From NCBI GenBank assembly GCA_036867785.1, contig CP145412.1:186001-250000 (forward strand): a stretch of 64,000 nt of DNA, in the 5' to 3' direction. This DNA comes from Plasmodiophora brassicae (taxonomy: Eukaryota). The position numbers and the translations under genes were made by a program. Positions 31,207-33,556 of the stretch are shown here, piece by piece. Under the pieces are notes generated by a model. It ran no database searches. It saw only the letters and a program-made list of their open reading frames with translations, and was not told where the DNA came from. Positions within the stretch are counted from its first letter, which is position 1; each line of letters opens with the position of its first letter.

Positions 31207-32372
31207 CTACTCGTTGTTGGACCGCGTCTGCTGCTGCTGTGGATCGTTCCCGCTGGCATCGCTCGGCTTCGGCCTGTTCAGGCCGAACTTGGCCGTGAAC
31301 CGATCGCGCATCTTGTGCTCCTTCTCGGCGAGGCTCTTGACGGACGACGAGAACTTCTGCTTGATCAGCGACCGCGACTGCTTCAGCACGCTGCTCTGCA
31401 CGTGCGATTCGATCTTGCCGACGAGCTTGTCCCACGTCCACAGCTCGTGGTTGCACGAGAACGCGTCGATCACGACGTTCAGGTCGTCTGCAAACGGCAA
31501 CCGTCAGCGACATCCAACCAAGCCATGTGTGTCGCCGCGCCGACCCAGGTCGAAGAAACTGCCCCGGAACGAGATGAAGAACTCGAGCTCGCCAATGTGC
31601 AGGTACTTGAAATAGTTCTGCGTCACAGGCTGGGCCGGCGACGCGTCCTGCCCCAGCGCTGCCGACGACGCGGCATCGTTCGACGGCGCCTGCCTGAAAT
31701 CAAAGACCGACGCATCCGTCGAGTGCCTGGATAGGTCTTTGCCTCGTGGGCCGCCGTTTCGCGCGCTGTGCAGGATCATGGCAGGGCGCCTCGGGCGCAT
31801 GACGGCCTTCTGTTGGGCGCTGCTATAGCTGGAAGCGACCGAAGGGCCCGGGGTGCTCGAGACACTGTCGTCGACGTTGAAGTCCTTGGCGAGCAGCGAC
31901 TTCGGGTCGGCGCCGGCACGCTTGACAGCCGGGTCGGCGCTGGGGAAGAAGTAATCCCGCATCCAGGCGTAGTGCTGGGCGTGCACCTTGATGATCAGGG
32001 GGAACACCAGGCCGCGGCGTGAGTGCAATGGGCCAGACTGGGCAACTCGGACGGCGGCCTATCTTGGTTTCTTGGAGACGTTCGCGGGGAACCCTACACG
32101 ATCATGCATGAATGCCGGGCCTGGCGTGCGGGTAACTCTGCACATACCGATCACCTGGGCACGCACACGAACCATAAGCTCCAGACTGTCTTTCGCCATT
32201 TCCCATCGCGAATGCGGGGCGAGCACGTCCGGCCAGGGCGCATTCGGGGCCAGATTACGGACGCGAAACTCCTTGACGGTACCTTGAAGGACACCGTCAG
32301 TCGGGCGCGCTCGTGGACAACCCACCGCCAGGCGTTACCGATGAAGGCCCTCAACGACAATCTCGACATTGG
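31207..32372 (-). pseudogene. BLTP2: 5'-truncated, degenerate 3' fragment of bridge-like lipid transfer protein 2 (KIAA0100/Hobbit/FMP27/SABRE)
   Basis: SRLSLRAF, FRVRNLAPNAPWPDVLAP, VFPLIIKVH...MRDYFFP, NYFKYLHIGELEFFISFRG and WTWDKLVGKIE match the recalled BLTP2 C-terminus. There is no 5' part, an in-frame stop after splicing (~32059) and an apparent internal deletion. Confidence 0.65.
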
Positions 32373-33556
32373 GACGTACTCGGTGATCCCCGTGACCAGA
32401 TCCCTGGGCCTTATCGAATGGATACCCGACACGGTCAGTTGAACGGTCAGGTCAATATATAGGTGCTGACGGCCCAACAAGATGCCTCTGGGATCCGTTG
32501 TGGAGAACCGGGTTGGTCAGAAGGGTCTGCACGATTGCTCGGATGCCTACTCGAAGGCGCTGACCGCAATGTCGGAGCGCACGCGGCGAAAGTCCAAGAA
32601 ACCGACGCCGCTGCTACAGTCGTACAGGGACCTGTTCGAATCCGGCCTCCCCGACGATGACGTTGTCGCCGCGTTTCACAACACGCATTCGGGGATGCCT
32701 TGGGATCTGCCCTCGCGTATTGCGACCTCGCTGTGCAACTCGCCGGAAGCGTTCCTGACAATTCGCACGGCACTGGTGACATCGTTTGCCGTCGGCAGCA
32801 TCGCCAGCTACATCGTTGGAATCGGGGACCGACACCTGGTAGGTCGACCACCTCCTGTCAACGTGTTGATCGGCATGCCTGACGTGCGCGGCCCCTCAGG
32901 ATAACTTCCTTGTTGGCGAGAGGACCGGCCGCATCGTGCAGATCGACTTCGGCGTTGCGTTTGGTGCCGGCCTCGACCTGGCCGTTCCCGAACTGGTGCC
33001 GATCCGGTTCACGCCCATGTTCCATACCCGCTGCACCTGTCGTACGCCTTGATGCACCAGACGATGGCGCATGCACTTCAGGTAAGGCCATGACGCACCG
33101 CGGAACGTCATCCACAGGTTCAGGTGTGGTTGGTAGGCGTTCCGGGCACACCGTTCCCATCTGGTCAGCGTGATGTCCGTGTTCGCTCGCGAGCCGCATG
33201 TCGACTGGCAGGCCGAGGACCTCCGATTCGAACACGATGGGGGCGCGACATTCCCCCAAGCGGCCACGTCGTCCGGATCGGCAAGTCTAGCCGCCAGTAG
33301 TCGTATCGCGACGGCCCGGTCGAAGCTGGAGGGGCGGTCGTCCGTCCAGGTGATGCTGGGGGAGTTCGCCAGGACGAAGCATGCGACGTCGAGGTACGCT
33401 GGTCGAATGAAGGACCTGATTACTGGGGCTGGAGGGCGCCCCGACTACGGTGCCGACCCGTTGAGTGTCGACGACCAGGTGGCGTGCCTCCTGGAACACG
33501 CGTCCGATCCCGCCTTGCTCGGCCGCTCATGGCAGGGATGGCGCCCGTTCGTCTAG
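32368..33556 (+). pseudogene. PRKDC: 5'-truncated DNA-PKcs kinase-FATC fragment with a frameshift
   Basis: GTYSVIPVTRSLGLIEWIPDT, IVGIGDRHL|DNFL, IVQIDFGVAFG, VPELVPIRFTP and FATC (QVACLLEHASDPALLGRSWQGWRPFV). The frame breaks at ~33023-33028, and the N-lobe and start are absent. Confidence 0.85.

What the first reader, a model, noticed from the sequence alone, without database searches (positions are those of the whole stretch)
31207..33556. Head-to-head BLTP2 and DNA-PKcs 3' fragments: probable scar of a staggered-break inversion
Seen: the DNA-PKcs 5' part runs leftwards off the window on the minus strand, yet a DNA-PKcs kinase-FATC tail sits 27 kb away on the plus strand. It is fused with essentially no spacer at ~32368-32372 to a minus-strand BLTP2 tail. 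Both fragments keep their introns (so they are DNA-level copies, not retrocopies), lack 5' ends and are decaying. Established: inversions formed by staggered breaks leave inverted duplications of both breakpoint regions. Inference: a roughly 40-kb inversion with breakpoints at the 3' ends of these two genes. It predicts an intact DNA-PKcs 3' end converging on an intact plus-strand BLTP2 some kb left of this window. If the left copy lacks its kinase domain, DNA-PKcs is broken, which could bear on the many fold-back junctions.
Basis: partly seen in the sequence, partly recalled or inferred. Interest (0 to 1): 0.75.

Follow-up and report, generated by a model that had tools for sequence, protein, structure and literature searches.

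The report
Scar of a twice-flipped chromosome block
Two dead gene ends fused back to back in what is most likely the clubroot parasite's genome are copies left by a chromosome inversion, probably one that flipped a 37-kb block back after an earlier flip; both working genes, including the DNA-repair kinase DNA-PKcs, are intact, so this is a known kind of rearrangement scar.

Summary
Observation confirmed. The fused BLTP2 and DNA-PKcs tails belong to a 4.4-kb copy (window 31125-35503) of a segment lying 6.3-10.5 kb left of the window. The copy is inverted and permuted, about 5% diverged at neutral sites, and frameshifted. Contigs of three DNA runs bridge both outer junctions. An 11.35-kb spliced contig of the left DNA-PKcs gene ends in its FATC exon, so the 'broken DNA-PKcs' idea fails.

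The layout fits a staggered-break inversion, but one inversion is not enough. The two halves of a decayed ankyrin-repeat gene flank most of the copy and abut within about 5 bases on four paralogues.

Best reading (0.5): a clean inversion cut that gene, then a staggered re-inversion reused the left breakpoint within 24 bp and restored the old order. A reinserted DNA circle is the main rival (0.3, two versions). No outgroup was available.

Two more inverted, permuted duplications lie in the 770 kb of this chromosome examined; none is direct. The scan found such scars earlier in other genomes. Known kind; modest interest.

The parts
1..5160 (-). 5' part of the working DNA-PKcs gene; runs left off the window to an intact kinase-FATC end at C4:178473 (7.5 kb left of the window). 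Start position approximate.
   Evidence: Pfam DNAPKcs_CC1-2; CC5, PI3_PI4_kinase, FATC in left loci; 4 of 4 full-length homologues tested align in order to their last residues; 11,351-nt spliced source-type contig
29871..31118 (+). Last exon and 3' UTR of 'gene E', an expressed gene left of the copy (no Pfam hit; resemblance to importin-13 is recalled, not tested)
   Evidence: stop at about 30702-30704; spliced contig to 31118 in run X16
30903..31100 (-). R1: downstream half of a decayed ankyrin-repeat gene (family with N-terminal hydrophobic segment; paralogues at C4 105, 329, 334, 342, 345 kb)
31101..31124 (.). 24-bp filler between R1 and the copy; single-copy in the genome at up to 3 mismatches
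31125..32361 (-). a': decayed copy of the BLTP2 3' end (source C4:175549-176852), introns kept
32358..32361 (.). New junction joining the upstream cut of the BLTP2 tail to the upstream cut of the DNA-PKcs tail through a 4-base microhomology
   Evidence: loose ends of the two source genes at 32351 and 32358
32358..33556 (+). c': decayed copy of the DNA-PKcs kinase-FATC exons (source C4:178473-179681), 3 introns kept
33865..34881 (.). About 1-kb fold-back palindrome, older than the duplication (arms 74% alike here, 81% in the source); outer arms are a retrotransposon gag fragment
34118..34354 (-). 78-codon ORF with a hydrophobic N-terminus in one palindrome arm; start codon present only in this copy; found only in the four arms of the two palindromes
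   Evidence: copy-type contig 34067-34622 at depth 105 in run X16
34953..35199 (.). T: spacer mostly deleted from the source; part matches one locus on C3 (77%)
35200..35300 (-). R2: upstream half of the same decayed ankyrin-repeat gene, colinear with R1; a 23-bp trace of the R2/T junction survives in the source spacer
35326..35503 (-). b': 178-bp non-coding block also present directly after the BLTP2 3' end in the source (C4:176852-177029, 93%)
35676..36386 (+). First exon of 'gene F', the expressed gene right of the copy (no Pfam hit)

Best explanation
Two successive inversions of the same 37-kb block. Label the oldest state 1-2-3-4-5-6: 2 = BLTP2 tail, 3 = spacer plus DNA-PKcs tail, 4 = rest of DNA-PKcs through gene E and R1, 5 = R2 plus b, 6 = gene F. 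Step 1 (inferred): a clean inversion with breaks just after BLTP2 and inside the ankyrin gene R gave 1-2-4'-3'-5-6. Step 2 (topology shown, mechanism inferred): an inversion with staggered breaks, 1.3 kb apart at the left and about 3 kb apart at the right, flipped the block back. It duplicated 2 and (3' 5) in inverted orientation, giving today's 1-2-5'-3-4-2'-3'-5-6. The two new joints were sealed at 2-6 base microhomologies (shown). One left break fell 24 bp from the step-1 junction (breakpoint reuse). The left-hand tails complete the working BLTP2 and DNA-PKcs genes; the right-hand tails are promoterless and decay.
For: Segment map and junctions. R1 and R2 are colinear and meet within about 5 bases on 3 of 4 paralogues and within the unaligned margin on the fourth; R2 scores above all 300 shuffles on 4 of 4 paralogues. 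The R2/T junction exists in both copies (21 of 23 bases in the source spacer; best of 200 shuffles had 6 mismatches), so it predates the duplication. All duplicated parts look the same age: neutral divergence 5.4% in the gene tails, 7.0% (12 of 172) in b, Fisher p = 0.47. In C4:30-800 kb there are 3 permuted duplications of non-mobile sequence, all inverted and within 40 kb, and 0 direct ones, as local inversions require and circles do not. Staggered breaks and breakpoint recycling are both reported in Drosophila (PMC1885836, passages).
Against: It needs a break within 24 bp of the earlier junction, a coincidence of roughly 1-2% unless the site is fragile (my estimate). The intermediate arrangement has not been seen: no joint for it or for the unsplit gene is listed in 3 DNA runs. 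No outgroup could be read. 3 of 3 inverted cases is a small sample (p = 0.125 under 50:50), from 770 kb of one chromosome; one of the three was recognised only from the finer alignment and copies on other chromosomes were not counted. Staggered nicks, staggered breaks on two chromatids and template switching give the same product and cannot be told apart.
Confidence: 0.5

Rival explanations
1. No inversion at all. The segment 2-3 was circularised at the 4-base microhomology, opened just after the BLTP2 end and inserted backwards into the ankyrin gene 37 kb away. Later, repair of a break in the source copied block 5 from the new copy into the left spacer.
For: The copy is an exact circular permutation of the source, the signature used for circle-mediated duplication (PMC7188851, abstract and section 6). 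The target gene R is split without loss. The end of homology between source and copy would explain why the later joint lies 24 bp from the first.
Against: Three steps rather than two. b is not younger than the gene tails. All three permuted copies seen are inverted and local.
Confidence: 0.2
2. Net inversion plus circle. The oldest state had the whole ankyrin gene beside BLTP2 (1-2-5'-4'-3'-6). A clean inversion cut it, and a circle of 2-5'-3 was later inserted at the right breakpoint.
For: Also accounts for the split R and for the R2/T junction in both copies. The 6-base near-match at both ends of the copy can be read as a target-site repeat.
Against: The circle must land within 24 bp of the earlier breakpoint in a 25-Mb genome; three steps.
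Confidence: 0.12
3. One reading: one staggered-break inversion from the ancestral order 1-2-4'-3'-5-6, so the block is inverted relative to the ancestor.
For: Explains the duplicated tails, their orientation and two junctions with one known event.
Against: R1 and R2 would have been 37 kb apart and opposite in orientation, yet they abut within about 5 bases on paralogues about 1.1-1.6 kb long; chance of this is about 1% (my estimate).
Confidence: 0.1
4. Assembly artefact.
For: A contig bridging the central joint at 32358 is not among the rows shown (222 pieces were not listed).
Against: In 3 of 3 DNA runs from three studies, contigs bridge 31125 (by 48 bases, no differences) and 35503 (by 43), the source's own junction is seen, depth is raised over the copy, and both alleles appear at about half depth either side of the joint, e.g. 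32392 in all three runs. The copies differ by 3-8% with private indels.
Confidence: 0.02

Closest known systems
Inversions with inverted duplications at both breakpoints (staggered-break model; Ranz et al. 2007, PMC1885836, passages read)
   Same: Non-repetitive gene fragments duplicated in opposite orientation at two co-occurring breakpoints, decaying by substitutions and small deletions; reuse of breakpoint regions.
   Different: Here a split marker gene shows an earlier inversion with almost the same ends, so the staggered event would undo it; reuse is at 24 bp; host is a rhizarian protist; no outgroup confirms the order.
Sequential overlapping inversions arising in heterokaryotypes (Orengo et al. 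2019, PMC6861252; abstract and part 1 of 2 of section 8 read)
   Same: A second inversion shares a breakpoint region with an earlier one and duplicates a fragment.
   Different: All junctions here can derive from the once-inverted chromosome alone; involvement of two arrangements is not needed and not tested.
Duplication through extrachromosomal circular DNA (Takahashi and Innan 2020, PMC7188851; abstract and section 6 read)
   Same: The copy is a circular permutation of the source.
   Different: The copy is inverted and near its source, and one block (5) from the target side is also found in the source, which a simple circle insertion does not give.

Membership tests
Staggered-break inversion scar | Both breakpoint regions duplicated, in inverted orientation, at the two ends of one block | tested here: met
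Staggered-break inversion scar | Duplicated sequence is unique, not a dispersed repeat pair | tested here: met
   only two young copies of the tails in G000; older fragments at 71-77%; the retroelement fragment lies inside the block, not at its ends
Staggered-break inversion scar | New joints non-homologous or microhomologous | tested here: met
   4-base and 2-6-base overlaps
Staggered-break inversion scar | Enclosed block is inverted relative to the immediate ancestor or an outgroup | not testable with these tools
   G000 has no relatives here; two metagenome scans found none
Single inversion from the ancestral order | Outer flanks of the copy were never contiguous | tested here: not met
   R1 and R2 abut on paralogues
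Circle-mediated duplication | Copy is a circular permutation of the source | tested here: met
Circle-mediated duplication | Target flanks contiguous before insertion and source unchanged | tested here: inconclusive
   R is split cleanly, but block 5 is in both places, so a second event is needed
Retrocopy | Introns lost | tested here: not met
   6 of 6 introns examined are present in the copy
DNA-PKcs loss of function | No intact kinase-FATC end on the main gene | tested here: not met
   open 347-codon tail frame; spliced 11,351-nt contig

The most novel reading that the evidence does not exclude
Local inversion with duplication is a recurring engine in this parasite's chromosome arms: it strikes repeatedly at ankyrin-repeat (candidate effector) genes, copies or splits them, reuses breakpoints to within tens of bases, and can flip a block and flip it back, leaving gene order unchanged while adding new sequence. 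Here that includes a transcribed palindrome whose 78-codon ORF has a start codon only in the right-hand copy.
Probability: 0.2. Interest if true: 0.55.

Novelty: new member of a known kind. Interest (0 to 1): 0.27.

Why it matters
As a single locus it is an ordinary rearrangement scar and does not bear on DNA repair capacity, since DNA-PKcs is whole. Two points have modest value. First, the x y' ... x' y layout alone cannot separate a staggered inversion from a circle insertion, nor show a net inversion; a split marker gene changed the reading here. Second, all three such duplications in the region examined involve ankyrin-repeat genes, a family reported as the most expanded candidate effectors of this pathogen (PMC12503489 and 10.64898/2026.10.14.759018, passages), so the mechanism may contribute to their turnover.

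Tried and rejected
Outgroup synteny: two metagenome scans with DNA-PKcs exons found no relative; G000 has no relatives here.
Word-index protein search for a full-length relative found none above threshold because its length window stopped at 3145 residues; the HMMER search gave 597 hits, including full-length DNA-PKcs proteins.
Older BLTP2-tail fragments (C4 97.0 and 99.3 kb) and a DNA-PKcs-tail fragment (292.8 kb) end before the informative junctions and do not date them.
The 24-bp filler and spacer T have no paralogue that shows their former neighbours.
No RNA holder was listed on record; run X16 is RNA by guess, supported by spliced joints. It shows only source-type letters over the two gene tails, but contigs show presence, not absence, so silence of the copy's tails is not established.
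The 78-codon ORF has no Pfam hit and no Atlas hit at 0.9 or more (best 0.81).
The one 'direct permuted' pair flagged by the census script (C4 494-504 kb) is the end of a 5.3-kb mobile element plus a flank and was dropped, as were two flags made of neighbouring palindromes.
Genes E and F have no meaningful Pfam hit.
Literature: one search on this organism with inversion, duplication and telomere-to-telomere and one on ankyrin genes listed no description of this locus; supplements (inversion tables of the two bioRxiv preprints) could not be seen and may list it.

Full report
Setting. The window is G000:C4:186001-250000 in a genome of 25,283,981 bases in 20 contigs; C4 begins with telomere repeats. 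Size, contig number, GC near 60% and gene content point to Plasmodiophora brassicae. This is an inference; earlier scan notes on this genome say the same.

Observation. A minus-strand BLTP2 tail (stop 31207-31209) and a plus-strand DNA-PKcs kinase-FATC tail (stop 33554-33556) are present and fused. The joint is a 4-base microhomology at 32358-32361, about 10 bases left of the stated place. A genome search found the sources at C4:175555-176857 and 178326-179691, 6.3-10.5 kb left of the window. There BLTP2 (Pfam Hobbit/BLTP2 on two upstream exons) ends on the plus strand and DNA-PKcs ends on the minus strand, 1.7 kb apart. Both tail frames are open after removal of GT-AG introns (324 and 347 codons). 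Four full-length DNA-PKcs homologues align along the left gene in order to their last residues (4 of 4 tried, out of 150 listed).

The copy. Self-alignment of C4:1-400 kb shows the copy spans window 31125-35503. The source reads a (BLTP2 tail), b (178 bp), c (palindrome plus DNA-PKcs tail). The copy reads a', c', a 373-bp stretch, b': inverted and circularly permuted. All 6 introns examined are kept. Lesions are on the copy: 32- and 34-bp coding deletions and both splice sites of one intron in BLTP2, a 10-bp deletion in the kinase. Divergence is pS 0.045 (21.5 of 474 sites), pN 0.016 (23.5 of 1458), introns 0.067 (22 of 327), b 0.070 (12 of 172). The pN/pS of 0.36 is near what one constrained and one free copy would give (about 0.5; inference).

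Reality check. Of 24 runs listed (20 holding half or more of the words, 8 studies) I laid 4. In 3 of 3 DNA runs, contigs bridge 31125 by 48 bases with no differences and 35503 by 43 bases, the source's a/b joint is seen, and depth rises over the copy (X3: 142 in the left flank, 179-540 in bins inside). A contig across 32358 itself is not among the rows shown. Run X16 (RNA by guess; spliced joints) holds a 7,253-nt BLTP2 contig and an 11,351-nt DNA-PKcs contig whose last 500 bases are the FATC exon and 3' UTR with source-type letters. Two Ku-domain loci are present on C6 and C12. So DNA-PKcs is not broken, and its loss cannot explain the 14 short-spaced inverted duplications of 84% identity or more counted in C4:30-800 kb.

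Why one inversion is not enough. The layout x y' ... x' y is what two staggered breaks give (PMC1885836, passages), but a circle opened elsewhere and inserted backwards gives the same letters (PMC7188851, abstract and section 6). The two differ in which joints are old. The left flank (30903-31100) matches a family of ankyrin-repeat genes at C4 105, 329, 334, 342 and 345 kb. The match stops at the copy and resumes, same strand and order, at 35200-35300. Aligned separately, the two halves leave a paralogue gap of 21-24 bases against 26-29 unaligned window bases on three paralogues, and 13 against 30 on the fourth; the second half beats all 300 shuffles on 4 of 4. The halves were therefore once contiguous. 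The junction between that second half and the spacer survives in the source as 21 of 23 matching bases (best of 200 shuffles: 6 mismatches), so it predates the duplication. With segments numbered as in the best explanation, the present order is 1-2-5'-3-4-2'-3'-5-6 and needs at least two events.

Histories. The shortest path is a clean inversion (1-2-4'-3'-5-6) followed by a staggered re-inversion, with one break 24 bp from the earlier junction. Breakpoint recycling is reported in Drosophila, as are inversions that share a breakpoint with earlier ones (PMC6861252, abstract and part of section 8). The alternatives are a circle insertion followed by copying of block 5 back into the source, or a net inversion followed by a circle landing at its breakpoint. 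Each path needs the same site twice. Two observations lean to inversions: b is no younger than the gene tails (p = 0.47), and the three permuted duplications in C4:30-800 kb (this one; C4 230.7-233.0 vs 244.7-246.8 kb; 340.8-343.2 vs 343.3-345.6 kb) are all inverted and within 40 kb, with none direct. Against: the sample is three, from 3% of the genome; other chromosomes were not counted; no outgroup was found; no joint for an ancestral arrangement is listed in the three DNA runs. I put 0.5 on two inversions, 0.2 and 0.12 on the circle versions, 0.1 on the single inversion, 0.02 on misassembly; the rest is more complex template switching.

Context. Isolates of this species differ by inversions and duplications, some touching predicted effectors (10.1101/2025.07.30.667784, section 6 read); a pangenome lists 110 inversions among 7,657 large variants and 198 ankyrin genes (10.64898/2026.10.14.759018, passages); 17 secreted ankyrin proteins carry a SKP1/BTB/POZ domain (PMC12503489, passages). 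All three permuted duplications here touch ankyrin genes. My searches listed no description of this locus; the preprints' supplements were closed.

By-product. The copied palindrome holds a retrotransposon gag fragment in its outer arms and a 78-codon ORF with a hydrophobic N-terminus whose start codon is present only in the right-hand copy. Run X16 has a copy-type contig over 34067-34622 at depth 105, against 4-9 in the next bins. Strand and coding status are unknown; there are no relatives outside the four arms.

Verdict. Real, correctly spotted, and of a known kind. Interest 0.27.

Noticed in passing
window 44674-46996 and 58706-60794: Second inverted, permuted duplication (89-94% identity, 12 kb apart); each copy has an ankyrin-repeat ORF of about 280 codons. 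Flanks gave no marker to order the events.
   Followed up: partly
G000:C4:340822-345747 (L036): Third inverted, permuted duplication, copies only about 70 bp apart, giving two ankyrin-repeat genes; the right one has a rearranged, shorter 3' end.
   Followed up: partly
G000:C4:97006-97390, 99302-99902 and 292770-293126: Older fragments of the same BLTP2 and DNA-PKcs 3' ends (71-78% identity); the DNA-PKcs one abuts the 5' part of another ankyrin-family gene. These two gene ends were copied more than once.
   Followed up: partly
window 33865-34881: Fold-back of a retrotransposon gag fragment plus an orphan 78-codon ORF; centre covered by a copy-type contig in an RNA-like run. Could be an mRNA or a hairpin RNA.
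   Followed up: partly
window 5692-6506, 6923-7571, 42327-42911, 43202-43489: Four further short-spaced fold-backs (85-98% alike); 14 such in C4:30-800 kb.
   Followed up: no
window 30703-31118: The 3' UTR of gene E runs through the ankyrin remnant R1 (antisense) and ends 7 bases before the copy.
   Followed up: no
G000:C4:386158-391502 and 495936-501273: Two copies of a 5.3-kb element, 99.98% identical, with about 200-bp direct terminal repeats: a recently moved LTR-type element.
   Followed up: no
G000:C4:95687-96538 (L017): ORF with a hydrophobic N-terminus and weak C2H2 zinc-finger hits, member of a family at C4 96, 98, 101, 125, 271 and 333 kb.
   Followed up: no
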